DNA of 64,000 bases from Chrysochromulina tobinii (lineage: Eukaryota), in the NCBI GenBank assembly GCA_001275005.1, contig JWZX01003385.1, positions 1-64,000 on the forward strand, given 5' to 3'. Made by a program: the position numbers and the translations under genes. The notes beneath the pieces were generated by a model, which saw only the letters and a program-made list of their open reading frames with translations, had not been told where the DNA came from and did no database searches. Below are positions 4,184-45,622 of this stretch, in pieces (within the stretch, counting starts at the first letter, position 1; every line of letters starts with the position of its first letter).

Positions 4184-7100
4184 ATGGGCGTGCCTGCCTT
4201 CTACCGCTGGCTGGCCGACAAGTACCCGAAGATCGTCGTCGATTGCATCGAGGACGACCCGGCCCACGGGCCGGTCGACGCGAGCCAGCCGAATCCGAAC
4301 GGCCACGAGTTCGACTGCCTCTACCTCGACATGAACGGCATCATCCACCCGTGCGCGCGCCCCGAGGGCCGGCCGCCGCCCGCGACGCACGAGGAGATGT
4401 ACGCGGCGATCTTCAAGTACATTGATCGCATCTTCTCGGTCGTGCGGCCGCGCAAGCTCCTCTTCATGGCCATCGACGGGCCAGCGCCACGCGCCAAGAT
4501 GAACCAGCAGCGCACGCGGCGGTTCAAAGCGGCCAAGGAGCGCGCCGACAAGGCGGCCGAGACGCTTGCGCTGCGTGCGGAGCTTACGGCGCAGGGGCGC
4601 GTGCCGCCGCCGCCTTCGGACAAGACTCCCTTTGATTCGAACGTCATCACGCCCGGGACTCGGTTCATGGCCGACCTCGCCCACTGGCTCCGGTTCTACA
4701 TCCAGCAACGACTGCACTCCGATCCGGGCTTCGAGGGCATTCGGGTGATCCTGTCGGACGCGTCGGTGCCAGGCGAGGGCGAGCACAAGATCATGGAGCA
4801 CATCCGTCGGCAGCGGGCCCTTCCGGGGTACGAGGCCGCCACGCGCCACGCGTGCCCGGCTGCGGCTCGCATGCAAGTGCTCACCACGGCGCCGTCTCTC
4901 CCTGATTAGGTACGAGGCCGACACGCGCCACGTCATCCATGGGCTCGATGCCGATCTGATCATGCTCGCACTCGCGACTCATGAGCCGGTACGCCGAGTG
5001 CATGCTGAGGACCTGCCTTGCATGCAACTGCTCACCACAGCGCTGAGGACCTGCCTCGCATGCAACTGCTCACCACAGCGCGCGCTCTTCCCCACTCCCC
5101 ACTCCCCACAGCACTTTTCAATCCTGCGCGAGGTCGTGCTCGACCGGAAGGCGCAGGAGAAGCAGAAGGAGAAGATCGCCAACGGCCACGTGCCCGGCCC
5201 GACGCCCCTCCAATTCCTGCACGTGTGGACGCTGCGTGAGTACCTGCAGCGCGAGTACTTCGAGGGGGTCGACTGGAGCCTGGTGCCTGCTTGATGACCT
5301 CCTTGATGACCTCCTCGATGACCTCCTGATGACCTCCTGATGACCTCCTTGATGACCTCGTGATGACCTCGTGATGACCTCCTGATGACCTCCTGATGAC
5401 CTCCCTGGGGTGGACTGGAGCCTGGTGCCTGGGGGGCTTCGACCTCGAGCCCAAGCCCTTGCATGCATGCGCTCACCACGGCGCCTCCCTCTTCCCCACA
5501 GGTGCCCGGGGGCTTCGACCTCGAGCGCGTCATCGACGATTTCGTCTTCCTCTGCTTCTTTGTGGGGAACGACTTCCTTCCACATATCCCGGCGCTCGAA
5601 ATCCGCGACGGCGCGATCGATATGCTCATCTACTCTTACAAGGCGTTGCTGCCCTCCCTCGGCGGCTACATCTCGGACGCGGGCCGCGTCCACCTGCCGC
5701 GGGCGGAGGCCGTGCTGCGCGAGGTGGCGCAGTTCGAGGAGGAGGTCTTCGAGCGCTCACGACGGCGCGAGGAGGGGCGAGCTCGCGCGCAGGCGGCACG
5801 CACGATGCAGGAGGGCGGGCAGGTGGCCCCGGGTGCCTTCGGGTCGCTCTACCCGCCGCGTGATAACGGCCAGAAGCTCCTGTGGAATGCGATGAAGGCC
5901 TTCGCCGATGCGGCCGTGATGGACGCCGTACTGCCCATCCCGGCTTCGTCCATTTCGTCCGGCTTCCACAAGGCGTCCTTCCACTTATACCTGACGCTGC
6001 TCAACCTGCACGACGCCTCGCAGCCCGACGGCTCCTTTTTGGTCAAATGCAAGCGCGCGCCGCGCAAAAAGGGCGCTGACGAAGCCGGCTTCGTCGAGCA
6101 TGCGAACGGTCTGCTAGGCGCCGAAGGGGTCGGTGCGGAGGGGGGGGAGGCGTCGGTAGAGTGCACTGTGGACGACTTCAACATGAGGCTCGCGCTGCGC
6201 CTGGAGAAGCTTGAGGAGGCGGCAGCGTCGCAGCCCGATGTGGTGCGTCACGCTGATGAGCACTCATGAGCGCTGATGAGCACTGATGAGCACTGATGAG
6301 CACTGATGAGCACTGATGAGCACTGTCCATCAGGTGCGGTACGGCGAGAGCGGCTGGAAGGAACGTTACTATGCGCACAAGCTGCAGGTGCACAAGGGGG
6401 ATGAGGCGATGAAGCGCTATGTCGTCGGGTGCTATGTGCAAGGCCTCTGCTGGACCCTAATGTACTATTACCAAGGGGTGCAGGACTGGGGCTGGTTCTA
6501 TCCCTTCCACTACGCGCCGTGTGCCTCTGATATCATCGGGTATGCGCCCTCACTGCCTATGCCCTCGCTGCCCTGTGCCCTATGCCTTGTGCCCTAGGCC
6601 CTCGCTGCCCTGTGCCCTATGCCTTGTGCCCTAGGCCCTCGCTGCCCTAGGCCCTCGCCATGCCCTCGCTGCCCTATGCCCTATGCCCTCGCCATGCCCT
6701 CGCCAGTGAGAACACCAGCTGCCCTCCTGAGCATGCCAGTGCTCACCACGGCGCCCTCGCTTCCCCACAGGCTCCACGAGTTTGCCGGCGGCCAGTTCAC
6801 ACTCGGAGCGCCGTTCACACCCTTCCAGCAGCTCATGGCGGTCTTCCCACCGTCCTCCGGCCATGCACTGCCGGAGAGCTACCGCACCCTCATGGTGATT
6901 GCGCCTGATTGCGCCCCTCATCCTGCGCCCCTGATTGCGCCTGATTGCGTCTGATTGCGTCTGATTGCGCCGCATCCTGATTGCGCCCCTCATCCTGCAG
7001 GTGCACCCCGCCTCGCCCATCATCGACTTCTACCCCATCGACTTCCGGATGGACCTCAACGGCAAAAAGTTCTTCTGGCAGGCGATCGCGCTCCTCCCCT

Positions 7101-8027
7101 TCATCGACGCCGCACGGCTGCGCGCCTCGCTCGCGCCGCTCGACACGACGCTCGAGGCCGAGGAGGCGCGACGAAACTCATTCGGGGCCGAGCTCCTCTT
7201 TGCGAGGGCTTCGTCACCGCTGGGCGCGCTCATCGTCGCTGCGACCGCTCACCACGGCGCTGCGAGCGCGGGAGCGCCGTGTCGAGCGCCACTCGACATC
7301 AGCCCGTACGTGCCGGGCTTTGGTGGCGCGCTGTCGTGGGCCGGTACGGTCGCCGATGGACCAATGATGACCGCTGATGACCGCTGATGACCGCTGATGA
7401 CCGCTGATGACCGCTGATGACCGCGTGGGGTGGGCCGGGCTCCCCACTCCCCGCGCATGCAAGTGCTCACCACGGCGCCATCGCCCCCCTCCCCCCACAG
7501 GTGACCGCGTGGGGTCGGCGGGCTCCCCGCTCCCCGCGCCGATCGGCGGCGACGCGTACGGGCTAGCGCCCTTGAAGGAATCCACGGTCGCTGGTGCGGA
7601 GTACACGCCTCCGGCCTACGTGACGCACGTGCCTCGACTGCTGCCGACGATCCACCTGCCGCCGATCGTGCTGCAGCCGCATGATCGCTGCCAGCTCTCG
7701 CGTGACTCCGAGGCGGCGTGCCGCTCCCTCGCCGCCCGCCTCGCGACCTATGGTCCGGGCAGCGCGGTACCCGTCGCGGTGGGCGGGCGTGGCGGCGGAC
7801 CGCGCTACGGCGGAGGCGGCGGAGGCGGCGGCGGCGGAGGCGGCGGCGGCGGCGGCGGCGGAGGCGGCGGAGGCGGCGGAGGCGGAGGCAGAGGCGGACG
7901 TGGAGGCGGCGCTCACGCCGTTGGCCACGCGGTGGCTCTGCAGGGCGGCTATTCACAGCAGGGCCACGCGGGGCTGCCGCCGCAACGGCACCGCTCGGCG
8001 CCGATGCCGCTCGGTGCACGACGATAG
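4184..8027 (+). CDS. XRN2: 5'-3' exoribonuclease 2 (XRN2/Rat1), 8 exons
   Basis: Motifs [81 protein letters not shown] introns 4828-4909, 4989-5111, 5283-5501, 6243-6333, 6540-6770, 6895-7000, 7344-7500 restore the frame; Gly-rich tail. Confidence 0.93.
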
Positions 8028-8226
8028 GGATGCTTACATGCATCCCCATTGGAGGTGAGTGGAGGCGAGGTGTCGGGTGGAGCGAGGGTGGGCAGAAAGT
8101 GGCCAATGCGGTGAGCAGAAACAGGCAAACGAAAGAGGGAGTTGCGGCTCTGCACTGTGCCGCTTCTGCCTCATATGATGTAATACTCGGTCGCGTCGGT
8201 TTCGCGTATCCACCGTTTGCGCGTTC

Positions 8227-10789
8227 ATGTGCGTTGGCTCCCGTTTTCCTTTCACAAGCGCCGTTTTTTCCTTTCACACCATCGTCCTGCTGCTCTTTAA
8301 GACGTGTTTCGCGATGCCGATTCAGCCGTGCCACTGCTTCTCCATGTGCACCGTAGATGAGGCACGCCAATTCCATCGCAACCTGCCCGGGCCCATAAAC
8401 CGCAGTAGCCCGTGGGCAGGCTACCTCAACGCCGTGTATGGCACCGAGGCTCGGCTGCCATGGCCATTCGATCTGCGTTCTCTCACCATGTTTTATCACA
8501 ACGACCGGCGCTGGAGTTCACGCCATCCAACGACAGAATGGCCGATGGCGACGTGCGCGCGGCGAGCACAGCCCGAGAGTAGGGGCCTGAGTTGGAATGG
8601 CCCGACGACGACAGTGTGTCCCTCCCACATATGCGCTCGCTGGACTGTGCCGCCGCCGCTGCCCGAGGCCGCTTACTCGGCGTCCGCTCTCCTCCCTCCG
8701 ATGATCCTACTGCCCGAAATCGGCAGGCAACCGCCAGACATCACCACGGCTGGCGCCTACTGGCCACTGCAGCCGGCGGCCCTTGGCGGGTACGCCGCCG
8801 CCGACGGGGCCGAGAGTAGCTCGCCGAACTCGTCCGTGCCGACGGCGAGCTTAACGCCCTCTCGAGTACAATGGGCCGCGACGCGATCTGGAGGCTGGGT
8901 CGAGGTGCTGCGGGAGCCCTCCGGCCTCGAAGGCCAGGCCGGGTACGGCTGCTGGTTCACGCCGGCGAGTGGCACAGGTGTGTGCTGGGTCCACGTGGAT
9001 TGATGGCTATTGATTGCTTTTGATTGGTTAACACCGGCGAGCGGCACCACAGGTGTGTGTGGGTCCAGATTGATTGCTACTTTTCGTTGATTGATGGCTA
9101 CTAATGGCTACTGATTACTCTCTCGGTTGCTTGTGATTGCTATCGACTGCTATTGATCGGTTCACCCCTGCGACCGGCGCAGGCATTTGGGTCAACGTGG
9201 GGCGCACCTGGGCAGTCGCGACCAAGCCGGAGCTATACCTGCCGTGGTCCGAGGGAGACCTCGTCGGCCGTTGGCTTTCCAAATTTGGGTTTCCACAGCG
9301 GCGTCTCGTCGAGGATCGAGATTTCGAGCTCAGCGTGAGCATCTGCCGCGCACACGCGGCCGCCGAGGCGCTCAAGACGGCGCGAGGCGGCGCGCTGAAG
9401 ACCGATCGATGCGAGGCGGAGTGGTTGTTGCGCCGCCGCCCTCCGAATGCGTCTGCGGCGGCGAGGAGGCCGACACCTTCCGTTTCGTCACCTTCCGTTT
9501 CGTCACCTTCCGTTTCGTCACCTTCCGTTTCGTCATCTTCTGTTTCGTCACCTTCTGTTTCGTCACCTTCCGTTTCGTCACCTTCCGTTTCGTCACCTTC
9601 TGTTTCTGCGCTGAGGCCGTTGCCTTCAGGGCCGCCGCTGGCCACGCTCCCTTCAGGCCCTTGTATGATGGCAGGTCATCAGTGGTCGTCAGTGGCAGGA
9701 CATCAGTGGTCATCAGTGCTCTCCTCGGGCCCTATGATAGGAGTGGTCGGCTCGTCGCAAAGCCCGCAGCATGCATGGAACCCGTTGCGCTACCGCCTCG
9801 TGCCGCATGCAATGTGCCGGCTGCACGATACGTGCCGCTGCACGCTCGCGGCTGCCGCGGCGGCATCGGACCCTAGTGCTCTTCCGCGACGCGCCCGGGA
9901 CGGCGCTCAGCACGACGCGGCGCCCGCCAGTCAGCCCACGGGGCATCCGCTCAACACGACGCGCTCGGAGGCTCTCTCGGGGGACGCTCATTGGCTCGGC
10001 TATCCCGAGATATTCCCATTTATGGCATACGAACTTGGCCTCGACAGCGTCCAGATTGGGCCGATCGCAGGCGGGGCGTACCGAGGCGACGCCTCTGTGA
10101 ACGGCCAAGGCGACGCCTCGGTGAGTGGCAGGGCTGCTAGTGCTAGTGCTGACAGTGCTGCTAGTGGCAGTGCTGCTAAAGCCGGTAGTGCTGGGAGTGC
10201 TGGTCCGGCTGCAGGAGCGGGCGGGCAATTAGGGCAATTAGAGCAATTAGGGCAGTTAGGTCAGTTAGGTCAGTTAGGTCCGGCTGCAGGAGCAGGCGGG
10301 CATGGCAGCCGCCGAGCTCGCCCTCTCTCGAGCGCAGCGCGTCCGCTCCCGCCCCCAGGCACCCCAGGCTGGCGGGCGGAGATTGTGATCACGACGGCTG
10401 CATGCATGGGGGCGCCCGTTAGGCGCATGCCCAAACTTGGCTGGCGGACTTGCTTGGATGGTTGGGTGGAGGTGCGAGCGGGCTACTTGGGCGACGATGC
10501 GAGCGGGTCCACGGTGGCTGGCCATCCCAACATGCATCACAATCGCGGGCGGCGAGAGAGCGGTGATGGCACGCGCCGTCAAGTGGGCGCCGTCGCGGGC
10601 GCTGGGCGTGCGTGTGACTGTGACCAAACCGCCCGCCTCCTCAACTGCGATGGCGCCCACTGGAGCTGCCGGCCCTATTGCAGGGCGCCACACCAGTCTG
10701 ACAGCGCTCGCCGCCAGATGCTGTGCTCCCGCGGGGATTGTGCCGGGTGCCAGTTCTGCGCGGCGCCTCGGGGCGTACTTCCGGTTTGA
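8227..10789 (+). CDS. Uncharacterised Cys/Trp-containing protein; intron 8978-9182
   Basis: ORFs 8227-9003 and 9137-10789 join via a GT-AG intron to give GYGCWFTPASGT-GIWVNVGRT; start uncertain; possible further in-frame intron 10203-10277. Confidence 0.55.
9474..9605 (+). repeat. 15-bp coding tandem repeat (SSPSV)n
   Basis: ccttccgtttcgtca repeated about 8 times. Confidence 0.9.
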
Positions 10790-11268
10790 TACCGACGGTC
10801 TGCGGACTGCGCAGTCGGCGCTCTGGATCGTTCTACGTTCACATCTGCAGCCGCTCACGGTTTGCGGAAACCGCAAGCTCACAGCCGTTTCACACAGGGC
10901 AGTAACCATGTGTTAGAAATCACACACATTCACATTCACACGTGTGTCGTGTTCTCTGTGGCCATCCGCTGGACATCTTCCTGTTTGTGCAGAAGCATCT
11001 TCTTGGGCGTTTCCAGCATGCTCCGATTACAATTGTGTCAGATAATTCACACCAATGGTTTAACCATTCACAATCAGAAAAATTTCTCGATGCGACGCCT
11101 GTGAAGTCCACCTCGTCGGGGACGATGAGCGATCTGCTGCGTCTCTCTGGCGACGGCTCCGGCACTCGTTGGGGCTTCAGGAGCGACGAAGAAGTGCGAG
11201 CCGGACCTGAAGATCATCGTGAGCCTGGGACTCCGAATCCCGTACCGGCGCGCTCACCTGAGAGGCCC

Positions 11269-12329
11269 ATGCCGCCCGATCCTGAGTACGGCACCTCCGA
11301 CTACTGGGAGAGGCGGTATGCTGAGCGCGTGGACGAGCAGACCTTCGAGTGGTATGGCAGCTTCGTCGCCCTCGAGGACGCGATCGTCGCCGCGTTGCCC
11401 TCGACCAAGGCTCTCATCCTGCACGTCGGCAACGGCAACAGCGCGCTGCCCGAGCGGCTCTGGGCGTGCGGGTACACGTGGCAGCACGCGAGTGACATCT
11501 CCCAAAGTGTACACCCAGCATGCGAGTGCTCACCACGGCGCGACTCTCGCTTTCCCCACAGGTACAAGTGGCAGCACGCGAGTGACATCTCGCCCACGGT
11601 GATTTCTCGTATGGCCGAGCGGACGAGGGACTGCGAGGGACTGCACTGGGCAGTGGAGGACGCGACTTGCATGCCGCACGCCATGGAGACGTTCGACGCC
11701 ATCATCGATAAGGGCACGTACGATGCGCTCGCGACCGGATCGTACCGCGAGAGGGCGTTGGTCTCCGAGGCGAGCTTGCATGCAGATTGCGACTGATGAG
11801 CACTGATGGCCTCCCTCATCAGGCGTGGCGGGTGCTCCGAGGCGAGCTTGCATGCTGATTGCGAGTGATGAGCACTGATGGCCTCCCTCATCAGGCGTGG
11901 CGGGTGCTCCGAGGCGAGCTTGCATGCAGATTGCGACTCATGAGCACTGATGGCCTCCCTCATCAGGCGTGGCGGGTGCTCCGAGGCGAGCTTGCATGCT
12001 GATTGCGACTGATGAGCACTGATGGCCTCCCTCATCAGGCGTGGCGGGTGCTCCGGACGGGTGGCGTATACATCCTGATCTCATCACTCGAGTCGACGGA
12101 GCTAGCCCTCGGTCCGCCTGCGTGGAGGCAAGGCGAGTGGCACGTGTCCAAGAGCAGAGTCGAGACGGGCATGGGGCGCAGGTGCTTCGTCTTTCGCGCC
12201 ATCAAGCGTCAAGGTACCACCGACGCGAGCTTGCATGCTGATTGCGACTGATGAGCACTGATGGCCTGTTCCATCAAGCGTCAAGGCACCACCGACGCGC
12301 AGCGAGAACAGGAAGTCAGCGCCACATAG
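11269..12329 (+). CDS. Class I SAM-dependent methyltransferase (METTL13 N-terminal / EEF1AKMT4-like)
   Basis: YGTSDYWERRY, FEWY, ILHVGNGNS, FDAIIDKGTYDAL, AWRVLRTGGVYILIS; introns 11472-11561, 11770-12038 (GC-AG) and 12214-12285; TAG 12327-12329. Confidence 0.85.
11770..12054 (+). repeat. 4 x 72 bp tandem array of (53-nt GC-AG intron + 19-nt exon-like piece)
   Basis: Unit gcgagcttgcatgc(a/t)gattgcgactgatgagcactgatggcctccctcatcag-gcgtggcgggtgctccgag starting at 11770, 11842, 11914, 11986. Confidence 0.92.
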
Positions 12330-13943: not shown

Positions 13944-16900
13944 ATGGCGGCCTCCCCCATTTTGGTCAAGGAAGCTTTTGGGGTCAAGGTCCCGCGCCCT
14001 CGCGTGCTGCAATACTCCCCACCGTTACCCTTTGAGCGTGACAAGGCCGTGCCATTCGATACGAGCTTCTCGCCGGTTGGCATCATGGCCGACCTTGCCT
14101 CCATCCCTCCCGCGTACGGCCACAAGAACCTCCTGAAGGCGTGGGAGCACGGGGAGCATGCACGCCAGCAGCACTCGCCGCGACCTGGCTTGCCAGCCGT
14201 GCCTTCGACGCATGCGCCGCTCAAGCCCATCCGCCGCCTCGACTTTGGCGCCGACAGGCGGAGCATCGGCCTGCTGCAGGTGCGAGTGCCGTCGTCGTCA
14301 GAGGGCAGTGGTTACCCGGCGAAGCGTCCTTTCAGCCCGCCTATGCACCTCAAGCATCTCTTCGTGATGCCGCACTATTCACCGGAGCTGCGCGCCGGCG
14401 ACGCCCCGCCCTCGCCTCGCCTCTACCTGCCACCGCCAACGCCTCCCCAGTATGGCGTGCCGGTATCGAAACGCAAGCACTCGTCGCAACGGATGGCGAT
14501 TCCACACGAAGGCGGCAGCGTCGGGACCACGGGGGTGGCCTCGGCCCCACTCCTCACGGCCCACTACACGGGCAACTACACGCTCTCGTCGTCCCCTTCG
14601 CTGCCCATGCTACTGCCCTCAGGCCCGCGAAACGCCCCCAGTGGAAACGCCGCCTCCCCTCCTCCCCCCCAAGTTTCGTCACCGTATGGAGGACCCGAGC
14701 TCCCGAGGGCCGCGTGGTCCACCGGCGCCGTGGCGAGCACCGGTCGCAAGTTGACGCCCTCGTCGTCGCTGCCAGCGCTTCCACAGATCCATCCCAGAGC
14801 GCATGCCGATCCGACCCAAATTAGGCAAGACGCGTCTTCTGCTCTGGGCCGACCCAAATTAGGCAAGACGCGTGGAGAGGCTACGATGATGGCCACCGAG
14901 GCCACCGCCATGACGGAGGCGGATCTCGCCGCGATCTCGCCGCGATCTCGAGGCGATCTCGCCGCGATCCGGCTGCAGGCGGTGCGGCGGGGGCAAGTGG
15001 CGCGACGCCGCGCTGTGGTGAGCACTCGAGCGACTCAGCAGCACCTCGCCGCTGCGGCAGAGAAGTATGATCCAAATATGGGACGGCTGCCTAATATGGG
15101 ACGTCCAGCGCTGTGGGAGGCTCGAGATTCCCACAGCGTCGATGAGACCTCTGCGCGCCACCTCGCGGCCATCAAGCTGCAGGCCGCACGTCGCGGGCAC
15201 GCGCAGCGATGCAAGCTGCATGCGGCGCGCCCAGCCCTGCATGACGCGCCCGTCGCGGCGCATGCAAGTGCCCGGCACGGCGCACCGACGGCCTCCGCGA
15301 GTGTGAACGTGAGTGTGAACCCCATCGGCTGGGTGCGCGAGATGGTGGCGCCATTCGCTTGGGTGGTCTCGGATGCGCGCATTGGCCGACTGGAGCACAT
15401 GGCGGCGGGGGGGGGGCTGACCGTTGAAGAGCGTGCTGAACTCCTGGAGGCCGCGCGCACGATGCAGGCCATCCAGCGCAATGAGCGGAGCCAGGCCAGG
15501 GAGCACCGCCATCAGCCGTTGGGGGTGCCAACGGCCGCCCACGACGGCGCCCTGCTCCCGGATCGGCGTGCCAAGGGAGGCGCCCACCACGGCGCCAGCA
15601 AGGGCGCGCAGCACGGCGCGATGAAGGGAAGGAGGGAGGTGCGACGCGCCGTGGTGGGCGAACCGCCGCTGGGCGCTGCGACGGGCGCGACGACGGCGGA
15701 GGCGGCGGCGGTGCCGAAGCGGGCCGCGGACAAAGGCGCGAAGGACATCGCGGCTGCTGCTGCCCAAGACGGCGCCCAAGAGGCCAGGGTGTCCAAGGGC
15801 GCGCCCAAGACGGCGCCCAAGGCGGCGTCGGGAGCGGCGCCGAGCGCGGCGAAGGCGGCGTCCAGGGGCGCGCCCAAGACGGCGCCTCGAGGTGCGTCGG
15901 CAGCGACGGCGACGGCGGCGGCCATGGGCGCCGTCTTGGGCGCGGACGTCTCGAATGGGTTTGCAAGCAGCTTGGGACGCCACTTTTATGCCGTCAATGT
16001 GGATGCGGTCGTGGCGCATGCGGTCCACGAGGTTCTCGACTCCGTCGTGAGCTTGGGCATCGACGAGCACGCGAGCGCCGTCGCGGGCGCAGCCTTGGCG
16101 CCGAGCGTGGCGAAGCCGGCGTCCAAGGCCGCGTCCAAGACGGCGCCCAAGGCGGCGCCCAGCGCGGTGCCGAGCGCGGCGAAGCCGGCATCCCATGCCG
16201 CTCCCAAGACGGCGCCTAGAGCGGCGCCCAGCGCGGCGCCGAGCGCGGTGCCGAGCGCGGCGCCGAGTGCGGCGCCGAGTGCGGCGCCGAGTGCGGCCAA
16301 GTCGGAGGCGGAGGTGGCGGCGGAGGCGTCGGCGAAGGCGGAGCAAGAAGCGGCCGAGAAGGCCACGATCGCCATCCAAGCGCGCGTGCGCTCGAGCTTC
16401 GTCGCCAACGGCTATCGCAACGAGCTCAAAGCGCGCCGCGCGGCTGCCACGATCATGCAGGCCTCCTACCGTGGGCACACCGGCCGATCCGCAGCGGCCA
16501 AGCAGCTGCGTGTGGAGGCGCATGCGGCGGCGCTGGTACAGGCCCTCGTGCGCGGTCGCTCGGAGAGAAAGGTGCAGAAGCTCGCGGTAGCCGCCTCCGA
16601 GCCCTCCTCCGCCGAGCCCGCAGCAGCAAAGCCCGCAAAGCCCGTCATCTCCGAGTCATCTCCGAGTTTAGTCATCTCCGAGCCCACCTCCGCCGAGCCC
16701 GCAGCTGCAAAGCCCGCAAAGCCCGTCATCTCCGAGTCATCTCCGAGTTTAGTCATCTCCGAGCCCACCTCCGCCGAGCCCGCAGCTGCAAAGCCCGCAA
16801 AGCCCGTCATCTCCGAGTCATCTCCGAGTTTAGTCATCTCCGAGCCCACCGCCGTCGACCTCGTCACCCCCAAGCCCGACAGCACTGATACCACCGCCTT

Positions 16901-26350: not shown

Positions 26351-29300
26351 ATGGCTGAGTTGACCCTACCCTCCAAGTTCAAGACTCTTTGGCAGCACTG
26401 CTCCGCACTCTCGAATGCAAACTACTGGGTCAGTGTGGATGGGCTCGGCAATGCGGAGCTGGAGGACGACATGCGCTCGGCGGCTCACGTCGTGCATGGC
26501 GGCATGCTGCACAAGTTCCGCAAGTCTGGCCGCGAGAAGCCGCACCGGCGTTTCGTGCGCGCGACGGGCGGCACAACTGCCCCGGATGGACGGCGCTCAC
26601 CTGTCGTGCTCCAGTGGGACAAGAAGGCCGCGCCGGTGGTGCGTGCTGACGAGCAGGTGTACGAGTCGTGCTTCCAGGGCGGCCCGGCACCGGACGCCCC
26701 TGGTTGCTTCCAGGTCATCCTCGACAAGCGGATGGTCTTCCTCGTCGCCGACTCCGCTGAGGAGAAGCAGATCTGGGTGCTTGGTGACCCTAAATGGAAC
26801 CCTAACCCCAACCCAAACTCTCACCTTAACCCGAACCCGAACCCTAACCCTAGGTGCGCGGCATTAACGCGCTCGTCGCCCAAGGGATCTGCATGCTGCA
26901 GCGTGACGACGAGCGGCTGGGCGCCGAAGTGGCCCCCGACGGGCCGGGCGAGTGGAGCGCAGTCGTTGATGCCGAGACTGGCGCTGTCTACCTTCGCGAC
27001 TACTCGAGTGCGAACGAGCACTGGATCGTTCCCAACCAGAGTACGCTCTCGATCCGCAAGGCTGACCCATGATGACCGATGATGACCTCTGAAGACCAAT
27101 TATGACACCCGATGACCTCTGATGACCTCTGATGACCTCTAATGACCTTCCCGCTCAGGTGCTGCCGGGCTGCCACCGCCGCCACAGGCCGCTGGCCGGT
27201 CGGGTGCACGCCCACCGCCGCTGCCGCCCGAGGCGTACGAGGCCGAGCCGGACCAGAGCGCCAAGAGCGAGGTTGGAGACTATAATGAGGGCGAAGGCCC
27301 AAATATGGACGGAGACCCAAACATGGACGGATACCCACGCGGCAATTCGCGCCTCACGCGTCCGTGCTCATCACAGCGCGCGTGCCTGGAGAGCGCACCC
27401 GCGCTCAAGCCATCGGTGCTCCGCACAGCACTCCCGCCGCCGGGGCTCACGGAGGAGGCGCCGCGCCGTGATGATTCGCACGTGCGGGATCCGCTGGCTA
27501 ATTGGATGATCAATCAGGCCGAGGAGCGCGCGCGCGTCTTCCGCGACCTGCAGGCTCAGGTGGACTGATTGCCTCTCTGATGGCGTGCATGTGATTGCAA
27601 TCGATTGGCATCCCTGAGTGCCTCCCTGCGGGCTTGCATGCTGGTCTCCATGGTGGGTCCTGATGGCCTCCAATGGCGCCTGATGGCCTCTGATGGCTTC
27701 GGATGACCTCTGATGACCTCGGATGACCTCGGATGGCCTCGGATGACCTCTGATGACCTCTTATTGACCTCTGATGACCTCTGATGACCTCTGATGACCT
27801 CGAGTCCGCAGGTGGACGACGAGGAGGAGCGCCGGAGAGTCGATCTCGAGGAGGACGAGCGACGCCAGCGCGAAGTAATCAGGGAGGCAATCAGGGAGGT
27901 GAAGGGCAGGGAGCAGAGGCAGCGCGAAGCCGCCGACGAGGCCGAGAGACATCGCCGGATGGCGGAGGAGCATGCGATCGCTCAGGCCAAGTACTGAGTA
28001 CCTCTGATTACCCCGGATTGGCACTGATGGTCCCTGAATGCTCAAATGAGCACCCCTGATTACCCCTGATTGCATTGCAAGGCATGCAGGTTCAAACAGG
28101 ACAAGTACCTCTGATTACCCCTGGATGCACCTGGTGGTTTGCAGGTACGAACAGGAAAAGGCTGCCTGGGAGGCGGCTGAGAAGATTCGACACACAGCAA
28201 CGGCGACCGACCAGCTGCAGGGGGCGTTGATGACACGGGACGCGCCCACGCTGCGAGCTGCGATCTCGACGTACGGGCCGATCCTCGAGGACGCCGGAGC
28301 GTCGTCCCGGGCGGACTTGGAGTTGGCCAAGGAGTACCTGACGAAGCTCGATGCCGCAGCGGCCACCTTTGCCAGGCAGTACGCTGGATGACCTGATTGA
28401 GCCTGACTGCCCCTGAGTAGCCCCTGAGTACGTTGGATGGCCTGATTGAGCTCGGGCGGGGAGATTGAGCCGCTGAGTACGATGGGTTGCTTCGTACGAC
28501 TCAGCCGTCTGAGTGCCCGCTGAGTGCTTGCTTTCGGATCAAGGCGTGCTTGCTTTCGGATGCTTGCAGGTACAACGCGGCAGTTGCAGAGCTCCACCAG
28601 CTGACCCATGCGGACGTGTCGCAGCTCGAGGCCGGGGCGACGTTGACGAGACTCGGCCACGTGGCGGAGCGCGCCGCGGCGCTCGGCGCACCCGAGGATT
28701 TGATGCATGCAGCGCAGGTGCGCGCGAATGCGCTGCATGCAAGCCACGTGGAGCTGCTGCACGCGCGCGCGCGCGCCGAGGCGGAGGTGCTCGACACGGC
28801 GCGCGCGACGCATGCCATCGGGATCGTGGGGGCAGACGCATTGCGCGCGGCGCTCGCACACGCCGCCTCGGTGCAGCTCGAGGGCGAAGTGCTCACCACG
28901 GCGCAGGCGACGCTCGAGGCGCTCCTTCGTGCCGAAGCCGAGCGTGAGCTTGAGCACGCCGCGGCGACACGCGCGCTGGAGGAGGCGACAGCGGCGGCAC
29001 AAGCCGAGCTCATGCGAGCTGCGGAGACGGGTGAGACGCTGCGTGAGTTTGGACGCTGCGCCACCCTCCATGAGGCCCTCCAACGCGCTCTCGCTCATAA
29101 TCTCGCTGTGCCCGTCGAGCGCCGTGTCGAGCACCGTGGGGCCGAAGAGGCGCGGCAGACGCTGATCTCCCTCGAGCTCGCCGAGCGTGCGCACCTCGAC
29201 GAGGTGCGCCCGGGATTGCCACTGAGTGCCCTTGATTGCATCGCTCATTCACCATGAGGCAGTCTCTGATGGCCTCTGATGGCTTCCCACTAGCATTCCA

Positions 29301-30854
29301 CAGATGGCCTCTCAATTGCCTCCCTCATCAGGTACGGCTCGCCTCCGAGGCCCTCCACGTGGCGCTCGCGAGGGACGACGAGGAGGCGCTCGCCCTCTGC
29401 ATGCCCCACGCGCTGCCCCTACGCCCGTACATCTCGCTGATCTCGCCGGGCCTGATCGAGACCGCGGAGCAGCGCATGCATCTGCTCGCGACGGCGCGTG
29501 CCACGAGGGCGCTCGAGACGGCGCTCGCCCATGCGGAGGAGATCGGAGCCGAGAGCGTCCCCGAGGGCGCGTGGGCGGCGCTCGAGACGGCGCTCCGGCT
29601 GGCCGAGCGGGTGGGCTTGCAAGGGTTGCTCGTGCGCAAGGCGGCGGCCAAGCTCAAGGAGATGACCGAGGCCGAGGAGGCGGCGCGGCGGGAAGCAGAG
29701 GCACTCGAGTACCTTCGCCAGGCAGAGGCAACCAAACGTGAGCAGGCGGAGCGCAGGCGACAGGTAACGTCCTCTGATGGACTCCTGATGGACTCCTGAT
29801 TGGCTCATGATGGACTCCTGATTGGCTCGTGCTGGACTCCTGATGGACTCCTAATGGACTCCTGATGGACTCCTAATGGACTCCTGATTGGCTGATGATG
29901 GACACACTCATACTGGCCTTCATGCTTGGCTCATGTGGTTGACCTCGTGATGATTGACCACTTGATGACCTCGTGATTGGCCTGGTGATGACCTCGTGAT
30001 TGACCTCTTGATTGTTCTGGCAGGAGGAGGGGAAGAAGGAGAAGGAGAAGGAGGCGCGCCGTCGTGAGCGCAAGGAGGCCGAGCGAGCGGCGAAGATCAA
30101 AGAGGACGATGCACTCACGCGCGCTGCGGCGGCGCAGTCGTGGAGCATGCACACCGCCCCCGATGGACGCAAGTACTATCACAATCCGATCACCAGCGTG
30201 ACCACGTGGGACATGCCCGACGAGCTCAGGGCGAGATCGAGATCGGACGAGCTCAAGGAGCGGCAGGCAGACGAGGCGGCCGCCTCCCCGGCTCCACGGT
30301 CAAGCCACGCCTCCTCGAGCACGGCCGTGCAGCAGCCCCCGACCGAGGCGCCGCGGGCTGTGCAGCAGCCCCCCACCGAGGTGCAGCAGCCCCCCACCGA
30401 GGTGCAGCAGGCAGCATACGTCTCTCGTGTGGGCAAGCTCGATGGCGGCGACCACGACGGCGCCTCTCGTGTGGGCAAGCTCGATGGCGGCGACCACGAC
30501 GGCGCCTCTCGTGTGGGCAAGCTCGACGGCGGCGACCACGACGGCGCGACCAACGACCCGTCGAATACGAGCGCGACCAAGGTCGAATATGAGGTCGAAT
30601 ATTCGAATATGAGCGCTAGGCAGCTCCGAAAGTTTTGCGCAGCGCGCAACGTCGAAGTCCCCGACGGCGCGGGTGTGGAGCAGGTGCGCGTACTCGCGCT
30701 CGCCCACCGGAACTTGCCCCCCGTGACGTGGCAGCGCACCAAGGCGCCCGACGGCCGCGACTACTACTACAACCCGAGGACCAAGATGACGAGCTGGACC
30801 AACCCCGAGCCACTCGTCTCGGACCAGCCATCCTGCCATGAGTCAGCTAGATGA
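26351..30854 (+). CDS. PH-domain, coiled-coil and WW-domain protein, about 8 exons
   Basis: PH-like GGMLHKFRKSGREKPHRRFV...EEKQIW|VRGIN; WW domains WSMHTAPDGRKYYHNPITSVTTWDMP and WQRTKAPDGRDYYYNPRTKMTSWTNP; introns 26777-26853, 27041-27158, 27560-27811, 27991-28144, 28379-28569, 29204-29331, 29764-30023. Confidence 0.75.
26777..26853 (+). repeat. Intron made largely of degenerate telomeric (CCCTAA)n repeats
   Basis: gtgcttggtgaccctaaatggaaccctaaccccaacccaaac...ttaacccgaacccgaaccctaaccctag. Confidence 0.8.
30423..30547 (+). repeat. 3 x 42 bp coding repeat
   Basis: SRVGKLDGGDHDGA repeated three times. Confidence 0.9.
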
Positions 30855-31315
30855 GGGCGCGCCCGTCGTCTCGTGGGAAGGGGGAGGGCGGGATTTGTGG
30901 CAGTGGGGGGGAGGGGGTGTGCGCGCGTGGCAATGACAACTGCTGAGACAAGAGCCAAGACCAATTGCAATACCTGTCGCGGTGTCTGGATTGCAGAACA
31001 ACGGGAACGTCGCCCGCGTGTCTCGTCTGTGGGCGGCGGCAGCGCGTGAGGTGCTTGCCGTTTTCGTCTCGTGGTAGCGTAGAACGGCCGCGGCAGCCGG
31101 ATTTTTTTCGAAAGGCGAAAGGCGAAAGACGAAAGGCGAAAGACGAAAGGCCACGATTCCACAATGACGATCCGCGTACCACGATTCCACAATGTGATGA
31201 ATCGGTCAAGTCCGCGTTACACGAAGCTGACTCGCCCCCGGTCACCTACACAGGTCACCACCCCTTGCAGATGCGCCATTCGGGGCCATTAGAGGTCATT
31301 AGGGGCCATGAGAGG

Positions 31316-32787
31316 TCACCACCCCTTGCAGATGCGCCATGTATCGATGATCGTGCGGTCGGTCGGCTCGGCGACGACGTACACGTGCTGGTGCTGGTGC
31401 GTCGCGGCGCACGAGTGGTGCGGCGCGATGGCGAGCAGGCTACCAATCGGGTACCGAGCGTACTCGAGAGGAGCGCCATCCGCCGTGCTCACCTCACCGC
31501 ACTCCTGCTTGAGATTGGAGATGCAATTAGGGAGGCAATCAGGGAGGCAATCAGGGATCATCATCTCACCTGCTTGAGATTGGAGATGCGTAGCTCGGGG
31601 TGCTCGGGGAACCCGCCGTAGCCGGTGGCAGCGCCCTGTCAGAGGTCATTAGGGGCCATTAGAGGTCAGTCCAGCCGTCCGAGGTCATTCGAGGCCATTA
31701 GAGGTCATTCGACGCAATCAGAAGCGATTCGCACTCGGGTGGAGCATCCTGTCATTAGAGCCATTAGAGGTCATTCGAGGCAATCAGAGGCGATTCGCAC
31801 TTGGGCGGAGCATCCTGTCATTAGAGCCATTAGAGGTCATTAGAGGCAATCAGAGGCGATTCGCACTTGGGCGGAGCATCCTGTCCAGCCACAGTCGATG
31901 AGGAGGGTGTTCGAGGACGGGTAGTGACCAACGACGCGAGTGAGGACCCTGACTGCCACGTCGCGCACCGCACACGTGCCGAGCGCCACTTGCGTCATGT
32001 CATAGTACAGAAAGTTGCCCGGGTGCATCTCGTCGATCCCATCGAGGTGACTCGGGGCAAGGCTGCACGTGGGAGTAGACCCAACTCCCGCCCTTGGCAC
32101 ATTGAGGCCGATGGAACGCAGCTTGGTCGCGAAGCCCACGGTGACGTCGCGCTCCTGCTCGGCAATGCGCACGATCTCGGCCGCGTTCGCCGCGTCATAC
32201 GAGTGGCCGCCATGCGTGTAGATGCCCGCGAGCGTCGTCACGCCGCTCTCCGCGAGCATGTGCACCAGCGCCACACTCGACGGATCGTTGGGATCGCAGC
32301 CATCGCGGTGGTACCCGCAGTCGACGCCCACGAAGACGCTGAGCGGGCGCGCGAGCATCTGCTCACGCACCTCGGGCCGTGACAAGCGCGCGATCAGAGC
32401 GGCCGCCTGCTCAGCGTGGTCTATCATCACGTGAAATTGTGCAAGCCCAGCGTGCAGCTTCTCCACGTCGTCCACCTTGTCGGCGGTGAGTGGCACCGCG
32501 TAGAGGATGTCATCGAAGCCAGCATCCGCAAAAAACTTGGCCTCAGCAATCGTGGAGACGGTCACACGCCGGCGCGTCCCGCCAGTTGCAATCACCCCTG
32601 CTTCAACCGTCTTGCAAGTTTTCAGGTGCGGCCGCAAGGAGCAGCCTAGTTCCTCTGCGCGCACTCGCATTCGTGCCGCGTTCGCTTCCAGCGTAGAGCG
32701 ATAGCACACTAGCGCAGGCGTCCTAACGTCGTCGAGCGTTAGTGCCTTGATAACGACGAGAGTCGAGAAGATGAAAGCAAGCAGCAT
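31316..32787 (-). CDS. D-serine dehydratase / D-threonine aldolase-like PLP enzyme (alanine racemase fold), 3 exons
   Basis: TPALV, LRPHLKTCK (PLP lysine), DCGYHRDG, YTHGGHSY, GSTPT, EMHPGNFLYYD, KQ|ECG, PHHSC, W...KGW; introns 31636-31866 and 31505-31569. Confidence 0.85.
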
Positions 32788-34740: not shown

Positions 34741-34905
34741 ATTGAGAGTATGGCTGTCGGTCGGTCAAGAGGTCAAGGAGCGCGTGTGTCGCGTCGGCCC
34801 TTCATTTTGCGTTGCGACGATTCCTCCATAAGGCAAGTCGATCCATTTGGCCTTCACAGTCTGTCCGATGCGGATGCTCAGACAAGGACTTCATGATGTG
34901 TCGAG

Positions 34906-37290: not shown

Positions 37291-37709
37291 GTACGATCAC
37301 CATCGTGAGCGAGTTCGTCTCCGGCGGCTACAACTGCTGTGAACTGAAGTATCCCGAGCGTTCGAGGGCGAGGCTTTCCAGCGCCCATGCCGATAGTCGG
37401 TCAAAAGGTGTGCTTGTCGCGGCTGTGTGTTCGTACCGACCGTGAAGAGGCTCTAGTCGTCAGCAAAATATATCGTGAGGTTGGTGAGAATATTCAATAT
37501 ATCGGCGCATTTAATCAAACAGTCGTCGCGAGATACAGCCTAGGTGCGGTGGGACTCGAGTCTCGACAGTCGACTGTGTAGACAAGCATGAAGCAAGAAC
37601 CGGGTGGGCGGTGGCGGACCGACCGTCCGGAACTCCAGCTGCACCGCAGCAGCGCCAAACGGACCCGACCCTGTGCACCGACCCCATCAGAGGGTAACGG
37701 TCGGCTCCA

Positions 37710-39230: not shown

Positions 39231-39389
39231 AGCAGAAGGGTTGCCGTGCGTCTCCCTGCAACACGGTGCTCGCTTTTCCTGAAAACCTTGGAGAACCTAA
39301 CTTCATGTTTCACCACGTTCGTTGGCCGCGTCATCTTTTACAGCGGTCTTTCCTGAAGGGGAATTCGAGACCGGTTTCTTCTTATCAAC

Positions 39390-41159: not shown

Positions 41160-41353
41160 GTAGGCTTCTCAGATTTCTTGAAAGTGCGCATGGTACTTAG
41201 TTAAGTGAAAAGTATAGCGGGTCCTCACCAGATCCGCCCAATGCTCCGCTGATAAGCGCCTGCGACGCGCTCAACGCGGCGCCCAAGTTGGCGCGGCAGC
41301 GGGAAGGTCCATTGCGAGTCGCTTACCACGTGGTGGAGACGGCGCCGAGCGCG

Positions 41354-41844
41354 ATGTCAAAGACTGCTGAGGACCACAAGGCGGATGGCAACAAAGCCTT
41401 CCGCGGGGGTGAGTACGCCGAGGCTGTGCGCAGCTTCACCGAGTCGCTGCGGCTCAACCCGCATGATGCCCTCGTTCTCGGCAACCGCGCTGCAGCTTTC
41501 GACAAGCTGGGCGAGCATGAGCGCGCGATCACGGACTCGATGGCGTCGCTCCGGATCGACCCAACATATCTCAAAGGCTATTTTAGGTTGGCGACGGCGT
41601 ACATCGCCGTCAACCGGCCGCGCGAGGCGCTCGAAGCGGTGAAGCAGGGTCTCATGATCCAGCGCACCAATAGCCAGCTGAGGCAGCTTGAAGAGCAGGC
41701 GACAGCGATGATCGCAGCGCAGGATGGGGCAGAGGAAGACGGCGAGGTGGACGAGGAGGATGACGAGGACGAGGACGAAGACGAGGACGACGAGGACGAC
41801 GAGGACGACGAGGACGACGACGACGACGACGATGAGGGGTATCT

Positions 41845-41886
<42 letters not shown>

Positions 41887-43644
41887 GCAGCACTCGCAGC
41901 CGATGGACACGAGCAGCAGTAGCCGTACGCGAGCACGGGTGCCCGCCGAGAGCCCCGAGCCGGCCGCGCCGTCCGACCCGGCCGAGGCGGCAGAGGCCGC
42001 CAAGGCGCGCGGCAACGACCTGTACAAGCGCGGCGAGTACAGCAACGCTGTCGACTACTACTCGAAGGCGGTGCGGCTGCAACCCACGAACGCTACGTAC
42101 CGGATCAACCGGGCGGCGGCGGCACTGATGCTCGAGCGCGCGGAGGACGCGCTCTCGGACTGCCAGGCGGCGCTCGAGTCCGAGCCGACGAACATCAAGG
42201 CGCACGTTCGAGGGGCTAAGGCCCGCATCATGCTTGGTCAGCTGTCCGAGGCGCGCCGGCACCTCGAGCGGGCAGCGACGCTGCCCACCGCCGACGCGAC
42301 AGTCGCGACGGAGCTTGCGGGGCTGGGCGAGCTCGAGGCGTCGCTCAAGTCCGGAAAGGAGGTGCTAGAGCAGGCGGGTGGCGCGGCTGCGCGGGAGGCT
42401 TTGAGGCTCTTCACCTCGCTCTCGCAGCGCTGCCCTTGCTCCGAAACGGTCGCGTGCCTGCAGATGGAGGCGCTCATGCGGGCACGTCCCGACCAGGGGC
42501 CGCAGCAGGTGGTGGCCGAGTCGGCGCGCTGGCTGCGCAAGTCGGCGGACAACCCCGGACCTGCTCTGCGTGCGCGGCAAGAGCCTGTACAAAACAGGCC
42601 AGCTCGAATCGGCTCTCAAGCACTTTGCAGAGGCGCTGCGGCAGGATCCGGACCACTCGGCGTCTCGTCAGATGCGAGCTCAGCTTCGTCAGATCGAGGA
42701 GGCGAAAAAGGCGGGGAATGAGGCCTTCTCTGCCGGCCGGTACGCCGAGGCGATCCAAAAGTACACCGAGGCACTCGAGATCGACCCCGAGAACGCTGAC
42801 CTGAACGTGACGTTTTGGACGAATCGAGCGACGGCGCGCTTCAAGAACGGCGAGTACACGGCGGCGGTGGCGGATTGCGACGCGGCGCTCGCGGCGGCGC
42901 CGCGCCACATCAAGGCGCTGCTGCGGCGCGCGGCGTGCAAGCTCGAGCTCGAGGACTACAAGGGCGCCATCAGTGATTACGAGGAGGCGCAAGCCATCGA
43001 GCCAGAGGACCAGACCATCCGCCAGGGGCTGCGCAACGCGAAGCTCGAGCTCAAAAAGTCAAGTCGCAAGGACCTGTACAAGGTGCTCGGGATCACGAAG
43101 AACGCGACGGACCACGAGATCAAGAAGGCATATAAGAAGAAGGCGCTCGAGTGCCATCCGGACCGTTTGGGCAGGTCTGATGGCCCCTCATTGCCTGCTG
43201 TTCCGCATGCTGATTGCCCTCCCTCAATGCATGCTGACCTCGAGCATGCATCCGGACCGTCTGGGCAGTGCCCTGATTGCCCTCCCTCATTGCATGCTGA
43301 CCTCGAGCATGCATCCGGACCGTCTGGGCAGTGCCCTGATTGCCCTCCCTCATTGCATGCTGACCTCGAGCATGCATCCGGACCGTCTGGGCAGTGCCAC
43401 ACCCGAAGAGAAGGCCGTCGCCGAGAAGCGGTTCAAGGAGGTAGGCGAGGCGTTCGAAGTCCTCTCCGACCCAGCGAAGAAGCAGCGCTGGGATAGCGGG
43501 GAGACTCTCGACGAGCTCAACGGGAACGGCGGCGGGCGCGGCGGCGGCGGCTTTGGCGGCATCGACCCGTCGGATCTCTTCCGCGCCTATGCGCAGCAGG
43601 GCGGCGGTGGCTTCGGCCGGGGGGGCGGCTCCCGAGGCTTCTGA
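41354..43644 (+). CDS. DNAJC7: DnaJ subfamily C member 7 (TPR repeats + J domain); apparent +1 frameshift near 42556, intron 43175-43394
   Basis: TPR clamps KADGN, KARGN, KKAGN; J domain DLYKVLG...HPDRLG|SATPEEK...FKEVGEAFEVLSD; acidic tract and polyQ at 41750-41886. Confidence 0.88.
43209..43398 (+). repeat. 3 x 63 bp intronic tandem repeat containing copies of the upstream exon end
   Basis: ctcgagcatgcatccggaccgtctgggcagtgcc at 43239, 43302, 43365. Confidence 0.92.
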
Positions 43645-43880
43645 CCACCAGGCGCAACACGGACGAGACTGGCCGTTTGTCTCGTAGCGCGCGGACGGGC
43701 GCGCGTGTCTGTTGGGACAGTTGGGGCATGCTGCAGGGATTTGTACACGACCGACGCTGAAGCGACTCGCTCGGCAAGGCGCTCGTAATCCCGCGTGGCG
43801 CGATGACGTGCATAATTTGGCGTGTCGACGGCTCGCCGCGTGCTCACCGCCTCATTCGTTAGGATAACTATTCGACGCGA

Positions 43881-45622
43881 ATGTCGACTTCGTGTGAACG
43901 TCAAATTGAAACGCCCGTGTCGAGCGACGAAACTTCTCGCGACGCGACATGGGCTGGGAGTTCCCACCACTGGCCGCGACGGAGTCGCATGAAAAACGCG
44001 CAAGAGCTCATCAGCACGTGGTCAGGTCTTCCCGAGTGCTCGCTCGTCGTTTTCCGACACTTGCAGAAGACGGGCGGTTCGTCCATCGTGCGTGCCTTCC
44101 ATGAACTGGAGCGCGACATGCTATGGACCATCTACGGCTACTGGAGCCCATGTTGGCAAGGCCGCTCGCAGCTCGTGGCCCGTGGGCGAATGCGCTGGCT
44201 GCGCATCGTGCGAATGCTCGGCGAGCGCGCCAACTCGTCAGCCGCAGGCACACGCATGCCGCAGAGCTGGCTGCGCGAGTTAGAGTCCATGCCATGGCCG
44301 ACGCGAATGCTCTTCCATTTGCACCATCCAGACTCGATGGTCTGCGGTGGTCTCGAGTCTGTGCAGGCGGAGCTTGCCAAGCTGCGCCCGGTGTTACCTG
44401 CGCTGGGCTGCCGCGTAACCGTGGCCATGGTCGTGCGCGAGCCATGGTCCTTTTTTGTGAGTTGGTACTATTACATTGGCGCCGCACGCTGCGGCTGGTG
44501 CACCTTTGAGCGCTTCGTCGCGCTCAACCCGAACGCACAGTCGCACTTGACGCTGGGCGGCGCGCCGCGCATTTACAGCGACAAGCTGCGTGCGCAGCAT
44601 GCGCGGCACGACCCTGTGCTGCTCGCGCGCGTGCACACGATCGTCGCAGGCATCGACGTGATCGGCGTGACTGAAAGGCTTGACGAGTTCATGCTCGAGC
44701 TGTGCGACGCTGCCGGGCTGCGCGTGTGCCCGAGGCTGAGCGTGCGCAACGTGCGCAGCCCAGGGGCGGCCTTGGGCGCGCTGCGGGAGGTCGCGTTGCG
44801 CGCCAACGCCTCGGTGCTCGACGTACGCCCTGACGAGAGCTCAGGCTCGTTACACCGACGCGCGGTTGCGGTCGCTGGCTGGCTTGACGAGGCTCTGTAC
44901 AGTCTCGCCTCGACTCGTGCGCGCCGTCGTGGGCAACCGGACCGCGCGAGGCTCGAGGCGTGGCGGATGCAGCCGATGTTCGAGAGTAGCGGCTGCTTCG
45001 GTTTCGCGCCCGTCACGGCGCCCGCACACAGCGCGCGCAAGATGAAGCCGTCCATCGCATCTTCAGCCCGTTCCATATTAGGATCAGCCCGTTCCGAGGC
45101 CATGACGAGTGCGTTCCCCGTGGCGCCCAGAGACGGTGCGGGTGGGCGCAAGGAGAGCCAGGGCGTCTTCGCCGTGCCGTTTGAGCACACGTCGTCCCGA
45201 CAGCACGCCTTCGCCCTCGAGTTGATGCAGAACCTGAGCGTCGTTCCGATGGCAGAGCGCGAGCAGGTGAAGCGCGAGCTGCTACGATTCCAGGCCGAGC
45301 ACGCATGCAAGTGCTCACCACGGCGCCCCCCTTCCCCCCACAGGTGAAGCGCTCGCTGCGCGAACAGCTGCGATGCGCTGACGTGCGTGCGGCGCTGGCG
45401 GGTGTGGGGGCGCGGGCGACGCGCGACCTGCCCGCCGTCCTGCGTCCATGGTTGCTGCCAGAGCGTGCGCAGCCACTGCAGCAGGGGCACGGCGGCGAGC
45501 TGGCCGGGTCTGGAGATTGGCGCGAGATCGTGCAGCACCAGGGCGAGCTCGTCGCCATGTGCTGCACGAAGGTACACTATGCGCATGCGCCACGTTTGGA
45601 TAAGGCGAGCTGCTCGACGTGA
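43881..45622 (+). CDS. Sulfotransferase-family protein; intron 45267-45343
   Basis: 5'-PSB-like FRHLQKTGGSS; 3'-PB-like VVREPWSFFVSWYYY; IGVTERLDE; start uncertain. Confidence 0.75.

What the first reader, a model, noticed from the sequence alone, without database searches (positions are those of the whole stretch)
4828..45343. Candidate intron-generating system: introns bounded by long direct duplications of the host exon
Seen: many introns begin with a copy of the next exon's start, or end with a copy of the previous exon's end. Examples: 4828 gtacgaggccgccacgcgccacg vs exon 4910 gtacgaggccgacacgcgccacg (22/23); 11472 vs 11562 (29/30); 12200 vs 12272 (27/28, spanning the splice site); 31505-31569 ends in a 21-nt copy of the upstream exon; also 45264 vs 45341, 43175-43394 and 8978-9182. 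The duplicated exon text supplies the GT and/or AG, and a short insert supplies the branch point and pyrimidine tract, so splicing is scarless. Established: described introners (e.g. Micromonas, Aureococcus) have short target duplications, and tandem duplication or double-strand-break repair are proposed routes of intron gain. Inference: this is an active insertion or repair process with variable, unusually long (about 20-30 nt) target duplications that builds working introns.
Basis: partly seen in the sequence, partly recalled or inferred. Interest (0 to 1): 0.85.

Follow-up and report, generated by a model that had tools for sequence, protein, structure and literature searches.

The report
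Introns that seed new introns
In a single-celled alga, many introns hold a long copy of the neighbouring coding sequence beside a shared splicing signal, and some are present in one copy of a gene but absent in another, likely because DNA repair copies the splice signal from an existing intron, often a nearby one, into a new break.

Summary
Confirmed and extended. The window is haptophyte. 11 of 29 modelled introns hold a long copy of flanking exon (control 4/812). RNA contigs bridge two such introns of Xrn2. There 137/215 cassette introns carry a copy of the next exon's start (control 0.5%), median 28 nt, maximum 48, supplying the GT. Two empty/filled site pairs show insertion with a single target copy in the empty version. 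One insert is identical to a neighbouring intron's 3' end. The best match is a neighbour in 24.6 of 121 cases against 1.9 expected, and some recipients carry pieces of the donor's own exon copy. Xrn2 and D-serine-dehydratase relatives read through these positions. Best mechanism (0.55, inferred): microhomology template-switch repair of staggered breaks using existing introns as templates; reverse-transcriptase routes remain open. This is not a fixed-TSD introner. The scan noted the footprint before on other DNA of this genome (e1-2577349); I found no published description.

The parts
4184..8020 (+). Xrn2 5'-3' exoribonuclease gene, 7 GT-AG introns, host of 6 cassette copies (end approximate)
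4828..4909 (+). Type A intron: 23-nt copy of next exon (gives GT) + spacer + cassette 4869-4892 + pyrimidine tract/AG
   Evidence: RNA contigs bridge it; absent in unspliced ORFs P0002, P0006, P0011
4989..5111 (+). Intron with two tandem cassette copies (5020-5043, 5058-5081), no long exon copy
5283..5501 (+). Compound intron: 11-nt repeats, 44-nt internal copy of the exon-exon junction (5407-5450), cassette 5461-5484
   Evidence: RNA contig X15 bridges it
6540..6770 (+). Intron with cassette 6731-6754, no long exon copy
7344..7500 (+). Intron with 39-nt internal copy of next exon (7418-7456) abutting cassette 7455-7478
8978..9182 (+). Intron ending in a decayed 24-nt copy of the upstream exon (gives AG), second copy inside
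11472..11561 (+). Type A intron: 30-nt copy of next exon + cassette 11518-11541
11770..12038 (+). GC-AG intron expanded as 72-nt tandem units, each 55 nt of intron + 17 nt of next exon
   Evidence: (D9, D12)
12214..12285 (+). Intron with both splice sites from a 29-nt duplication; its insert matches the neighbouring intron (11771 vs 12226, 41 of 46), a likely local donor
   Evidence: D12
31246..31319 (-). Intron with a perfect 27-nt internal junction-spanning copy, D-serine dehydratase-like gene
31505..31569 (-). Intron ending in a perfect 20-nt copy of the upstream exon (gives AG)
31636..31866 (-). Intron of 66-nt tandem units holding the upstream exon end; shared by all 15 listed unspliced calls at 93-99.6% protein identity, absent at 64%
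   Evidence: (D18)
43175..43394 (+). Intron of 63-nt tandem units ending in a 20-nt copy of the upstream exon (gives AG), TPR-DnaJ-like gene
   Evidence: (D17)
45267..45343 (+). Type A intron: 16-nt decayed copy of next exon + cassette 45303-45326

Best explanation
New introns here consist of a 10-48 nt duplication of the host exon around a short piece matching another intron, and they likely arise when a staggered DNA break in an exon is repaired by template switching: a broken end would anneal by 2-9 nt of microhomology to an existing intron, copy about 45-80 nt of its splicing signals, and rejoin, duplicating the overhang. Shown: duplication, shared cassette, empty versus filled sites, donor-recipient identity, enrichment of neighbouring donors, junction microhomology. 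Inferred: the break, the polymerase, and whether the template is DNA or RNA. Selection keeps events in which the duplication and/or insert put GT/GC and AG in register, so the mRNA is unchanged. The insert may carry the 3' site (type A), the 5' site (type B) or neither. The direct repeats then let whole units expand in tandem. Each new intron becomes a new donor, so the cassette spreads without needing to be a transposon.
For: Duplications: 137/215 vs 0.47%; second intron family 43/95 vs 0/8734; lengths continuous, median 28, max 48. L073 carries an 81-nt insertion with a perfect 34-nt duplication where L050 and L032 have one target copy. Its 47-nt insert matches, among 346 cassettes, only the intron about 520 nt away in the same gene (0-1 mismatch) and one unlinked copy. 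L068 has the empty site of L055's triple unit and cannot be a pop-out of it, since it matches the exon copy at one marker and the intron copies at the other; the rare cassette variant occurs only in that gene (5 of 346). Best match is a neighbour <3 kb in 24.6/121 vs 1.9 expected. Recipients carry pieces of the donor's own exon copy: L065 2426>728, L054 10000>12534, L093 16681>15511. The L054 donor lies in the adjacent ORF, and donors lie both up- and downstream, which favours DNA proximity. Microhomology >=2 nt at 16/21 flush junctions vs 14% chance. Both insert ends vary; no stable fold; no Rfam match near a gathering score. Coding regions also show tandem duplications.
Against: Most cassettes have no close local match (similarity >=0.8 in only 7 of 193 pairs <3 kb), identical inserts also occur at unlinked loci (L036/L114), and variant sharing within 1 kb was not significant (400/5000 permutations), so much copying is in trans or its donor is lost. 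Orientation is 96 sense to 4 antisense, which fits an RNA template as well as selection. The type A geometry (constant 3' end, variable 5' end, variable duplication) is also that of target-primed reverse transcription. The microhomology count is inflated by anchoring on exact cassettes (my rough estimate of the fair null is about 25%). The polymorphisms rest on assemblies, not reads, and L055/L068 may be paralogues. No genome was available to look for POLQ or a reverse transcriptase.
Confidence: 0.55

Rival explanations
1. A reverse transcriptase acting in trans makes the copies, either by target-primed reverse transcription on intron-containing RNA (SINE-like) or by RT template switching on pre-mRNA followed by recombination.
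For: Constant 3' end with variable 5' end and variable duplication in type A; strong sense bias; same-gene donors would follow from a shared transcript; RT template switching is a proposed route (PMC3443670).
Against: Type B and both-sites-recruited introns have the other end or no end constant; no poly(A) or repeat tail; one donor is in the adjacent ORF; neighbouring introns are retained in the polymorphic pairs.
Confidence: 0.27
2. The introns are old, and the exon copies are secondary: local slippage or repair at existing splice junctions duplicates flanking exon into the intron and homogenises the branch-point region.
For: It explains part of the data: 16 of 134 copies begin right after an older-looking 3' site; unit copy number varies between versions of a locus (L037/L099, L049/L079); intron 31636-31866 is fixed down to 93% protein identity.
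Against: Empty sites in open reading frames with one target copy; relatives read through the positions.
Confidence: 0.1
3. A classical non-autonomous DNA-transposon introner (MITE-like) moved by a transposase.
For: Haptophytes, including Chrysochromulina MAGs, carry many introner families (PMC9860276 supplement); high-copy shared cassette.
Against: Duplication length is continuous 10-48 nt rather than fixed 3-9 nt; no fixed ends or terminal inverted repeats; donor-specific exon pieces are carried over.
Confidence: 0.05

Closest known systems
Introners / ILEs of Symbiodinium, Polarella, Aureococcus and Chrysochromulina MAGs (PMC9860276; bioRxiv 10.1101/2020.10.14.339549; passages seen)
   Same: Repeated intronic sequence; one or both splice sites recruited from a target duplication; scarless splicing; recent gains.
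   Different: Their duplications are fixed per family and 3-9 nt, often with TIRs, and copies are similar end to end. Here duplications are 10-48 nt and variable, only a core is shared, both ends vary, and donors are other introns with a cis bias. The Chrysochromulina example has a 4-bp TSD and carries the 5' site.
Daphnia pulex neointrons from staggered double-strand breaks (PMC4202315; passages seen)
   Same: Direct repeat of the adjacent exon at the opposite intron end; presence/absence polymorphism; internal repeats from repeated events.
   Different: Repeats are 4-12 bp and insert sources mostly unknown there; here repeats are about three times longer and the insert is traceable to existing introns.
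Tandem genomic duplication model of intron gain (PMC3443670; passages seen)
   Same: Duplicated exon text supplies GT and/or AG.
   Different: That model has no foreign insert; here a 45-80 nt insert supplies the branch point and tract.
Intron transposition by reverse splicing (Oikopleura, Micromonas IEs; PMC4122922, PMC4540971; passages seen) and RT template switching (proposal cited in PMC3443670)
   Same: An existing intron is the source; sense orientation.
   Different: Reverse splicing inserts a whole intron cleanly; here only part is copied and the target is duplicated.

Membership tests
DNA-transposon-derived introner (MITE-like) | Many introns share sequence across unrelated genes | tested here: met
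   9 cassette copies in the window vs 0 expected; 202 copies in 101 loci after collapsing
DNA-transposon-derived introner (MITE-like) | Similarity over the whole element with fixed ends | tested here: not met
   copy end lies from 35 nt before to 6 nt into the cassette; tracts vary
DNA-transposon-derived introner (MITE-like) | Fixed short TSD (3-9 nt) | tested here: not met
   continuous range, median 28, IQR 22-36, max 48
DNA-transposon-derived introner (MITE-like) | Terminal inverted repeats | tested here: not met
   no end pairing beyond shuffles in 4 folded examples, z from -1.07 to 1.21
DNA-transposon-derived introner (MITE-like) | Autonomous transposase partner in the genome | not testable with these tools
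   no genome held
DSB-repair neointrons (Daphnia type) | Direct repeat of adjacent exon at the opposite end | tested here: met
DSB-repair neointrons (Daphnia type) | Presence/absence with single target copy in the empty allele | tested here: met
   L073 vs L050/L032; L055 vs L068, from assemblies only
DSB-repair neointrons (Daphnia type) | Dependence on an end-joining pathway | not testable with these tools
   needs genetics; microhomology at 16/21 junctions is indirect
Tandem genomic duplication | Intron made only of duplicated host sequence | tested here: not met
   47-nt foreign insert in L073
Reverse-splicing intron transposition | Whole intron inserted without target duplication | tested here: not met
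   partial copies plus long duplications
SINE / non-LTR retrotransposition (TPRT) | Variable TSD, constant 3' end, 5' truncation | tested here: inconclusive
   met by type A, not by type B (7/16 with upstream copy) or 12214-12285
SINE / non-LTR retrotransposition (TPRT) | Derivation from a tRNA/5S/7SL-type RNA and a partner LINE | tested here: inconclusive
   no Rfam match near gathering score on one type B copy; partner not testable without a genome

The most novel reading that the evidence does not exclude
Introns beget introns without any transposon: ordinary break repair copies the splice signals of existing introns, preferentially neighbours on the same DNA, into exonic breaks, giving a self-amplifying, genome-wide and still active route of intron gain in which donor-to-recipient pedigrees can be read from the sequence.
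Probability: 0.45. Interest if true: 0.93.

Novelty: new variant of a known kind. Interest (0 to 1): 0.82.

Why it matters
The source of most newly gained introns is unknown (stated in PMC4202315 and PMC3443670). Here source, target and footprint are all visible, with empty and filled versions of the same site, at a scale of hundreds of loci. It joins the break-repair and intron-transposition models in one testable process. Searches that need end-to-end intron similarity would likely miss it (C. tobinii is listed with 0 families in PMC12130899's supplement; whether this alga is that species is unknown). It makes DNA versus RNA templating directly testable from population genomes.

Tried and rejected
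No whole genome held and the metagenome records had no handles, so no search for POLQ, reverse transcriptase or a master locus. Viral contigs gave 1 cassette hit and 0 for the second family. A degenerate pattern in prokaryote genomes gave 24 hits taken as chance and not used. Rfam and folding gave no RNA-gene or hairpin origin. Replitrons (PMC10288648; variable TSD, fuzzy ends) were considered and rejected: they have fixed short terminal repeats, and the variable TSD was seen in one family of 2-bp scale. An RT-switch artefact in the RNA contigs was rejected for 4828-4909 because retention of 82 nt breaks Xrn2 and homologues are colinear after removal. An assembly artefact for the repeats was rejected because DNA contigs cover both copies. 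The first family-2 control was inflated by intronic 'exons' and was redone; the first type B attempt picked a tandem array. One search's neighbour test was biased by exact-match anchoring and tandem units and was replaced. Repeats among loci near L054 were a kinase gene family, not a retroelement. Table 5b of read laying (joined form in other runs) was not given.
Full report
Organism and genes. The window is eukaryotic, about 63% GC. Xrn2 exon 1 has its closest named hits in Prymnesium parvum (74%) and Chrysotila carterae (73%), so it is a haptophyte; the genus is unresolved. No genome is held. I modelled 29 introns by hand in 11 genes; all are GT-AG or GC-AG and leave an open frame across the junction. 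Xrn2 with 7 introns gives 944 aa. RNA contigs laid on 2500-6265 bridge four introns, including 4828-4909 and 5283-5501 (3 RNA runs, 1 DNA run; contigs, not reads).

Observation. 11 of 29 introns contain a flanking-exon copy scoring >=12 against 4 of 812 mis-paired controls; 18 do not. Some copies are in register at the boundary (4828, 8978, 11472, 12214, 31505, 43175, 45267); others lie inside compound introns or tandem arrays of [intron + exon piece] units of 63, 66 and 72 nt.

A shared cassette. A 24-nt motif containing a CTCAC branch-point-like site (the branch-point reading is from general knowledge) occurs 9 times in the window, 0 expected. Of 294 distinct copies, 282 had enough flank and 215 had their own 3' site; 137 of these carry a copy of the next exon's start upstream of the cassette, against 0.47% of shuffled pairings. 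After dropping 17 redundant loci and collapsing tandem units (220 to 202 copies), 134 of 198 examined were in register: median 28 nt duplicated, IQR 22-36, maximum 48; unit length median 76; 94.5% identity; 33 perfect; donor GT in 103 and GC in 13. A second family ending in CTCATCAG shows the same footprint, 43 of 95 against 0 of 8734. Sixteen copies in 11 loci carry a constant 5' module with their own GT, and 7 of them end in a copy of the upstream exon (control 16 of 226). So the insert can bring the 3' site, the 5' site or neither.

Gain, and recent. Ten overlapping locus pairs were aligned. Two show a whole intron present or absent. L073 has an 81-nt insertion with a perfect 34-nt duplication inside an open frame where L050 and L032 (38 mismatches apart over 11 kb) have one target copy. 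L055 has three 86-nt units where L068 has a single target; L068 matches the exon copy at one two-base marker and the intron copies at the other, which no deletion between repeats can give, so it is the older state, though it may be a paralogue. Several pairs differ only in unit copy number, and the rest share their introns. In relatives, ORFs called without splicing (P0128 runs into the window's own intron) read through the positions. P0002, P0006 and P0011 cross Xrn2 sites 215 and 242 and then run into non-homologous tails, read as their own introns. Full-length D-serine-dehydratase-like ORFs on contigs up to 143 kb cross all three sites of that gene. Against very recent origin of everything: intron 31636-31866 is shared by all 15 listed calls at 93-99.6% identity.

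Donors. The L073 insert matches only the neighbouring intron of the same gene (0 mismatches in L050/L032, 1 in L073) and one unlinked copy, among 346 cassettes; the L055 variant is confined to that gene. In the window, 12226 matches 11771 at 41 of 46. Across loci the best match is a same-strand neighbour within 3 kb for 24.6 of 121 cassettes, 1.9 expected. Non-consensus pairs share variants in 27 of 108 against 631 of 4676 (20 of 5000 permutations); the 1-kb test alone was not significant (400 of 5000), and identical inserts also occur at unlinked loci. In L065, L054 and L093 the recipient contains a piece of the donor's own exon copy, joined at 5-9 nt of shared sequence; the L054 donor is in the adjacent ORF. 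Microhomology of >=2 nt is seen at 16 of 21 flush junctions against 14% chance, with an ascertainment caveat. Orientation is 96 sense, 4 antisense, 189 unscored.

Mechanism. Shown: duplication, copied insert, local donor excess, microhomology, empty sites. Inferred: a staggered break whose overhang becomes the duplication, template switching to an intron, and selection for in-register GT/GC and AG. The lower bound on unit length (about 64 nt) is likely spliceosomal; the 48-nt ceiling is likely mechanistic, as I searched 70-100 nt. I give DNA-templated repair 0.55 and reverse-transcriptase routes 0.27.

Comparison. Published introners have fixed 3-9 nt duplications (PMC9860276, passages, supplement rows; bioRxiv 10.1101/2020.10.14.339549, passages, supplement not seen). 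PMC12130899 (passages; supplement rows; files 13-14 not searched) lists 0 families for C. tobinii and an E. huxleyi family with 10-bp terminal direct repeats, the nearest hint. Daphnia neointrons have 4-12 bp repeats and unknown sources (PMC4202315, passages). PMC3443670 (passages) reviews the models; PMC4122922 and PMC4540971 (passages) cover reverse splicing; PMC11782384 (abstract) reports 4-30 bp repeats near introns generally; PMC10288648 (passages) covers Replitrons. Ten full-text searches found no description of this system; the library lacks most subscription papers, and the full introner sequence sets were not seen, so the cassette could be listed there.

Verdict. Real, genome-wide and still active intron gain with long variable target duplications and intron-templated inserts. 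It works like a cross between an introner and break-repair gain but fails membership of fixed-TSD introners. Interest 0.82.

Noticed in passing
window 26777-26853: Intron filled with telomere-like CCCTAA-type repeats that supply branch point and AG; hints at telomerase-type fill-in as another intron source (telomere likeness is from recall).
   Followed up: no
window 3437-3599, 27560-27811, 29764-30023: Many introns are arrays of degenerate 10-11 nt repeats shared genome-wide (very high depth).
   Followed up: partly
window 15260-15283 and about 28888-28905: Cassette-like text inside apparent coding sequence, in frame; possibly exonised remnants (second one seen by eye).
   Followed up: no
window 31246-31319: Intron splits the last codon of the gene, one base before the stop.
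   Followed up: partly
window about 42555-42565: Apparent one-base frameshift in the TPR-DnaJ-like gene, seen by eye only; assembly error or collapsed intron.
   Followed up: no
L055:1228-1252: Cassette antisense to the local gene, near its 3' end, flanked by a 17-nt repeat; would favour a DNA-level process.
   Followed up: partly
window 16588-16878; L032 vs L050: Tandem duplications also occur in coding DNA (81 nt x3; a 39-nt polymorphic duplication), so local duplication is general in this genome.
   Followed up: partly
L079:396-764 vs window 41344-41712: 97.8% identical copy of the TPR gene's start elsewhere in the genome.
   Followed up: no
L001: One cassette near the end of a contig in the viral collection, probably host DNA.
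   Followed up: no
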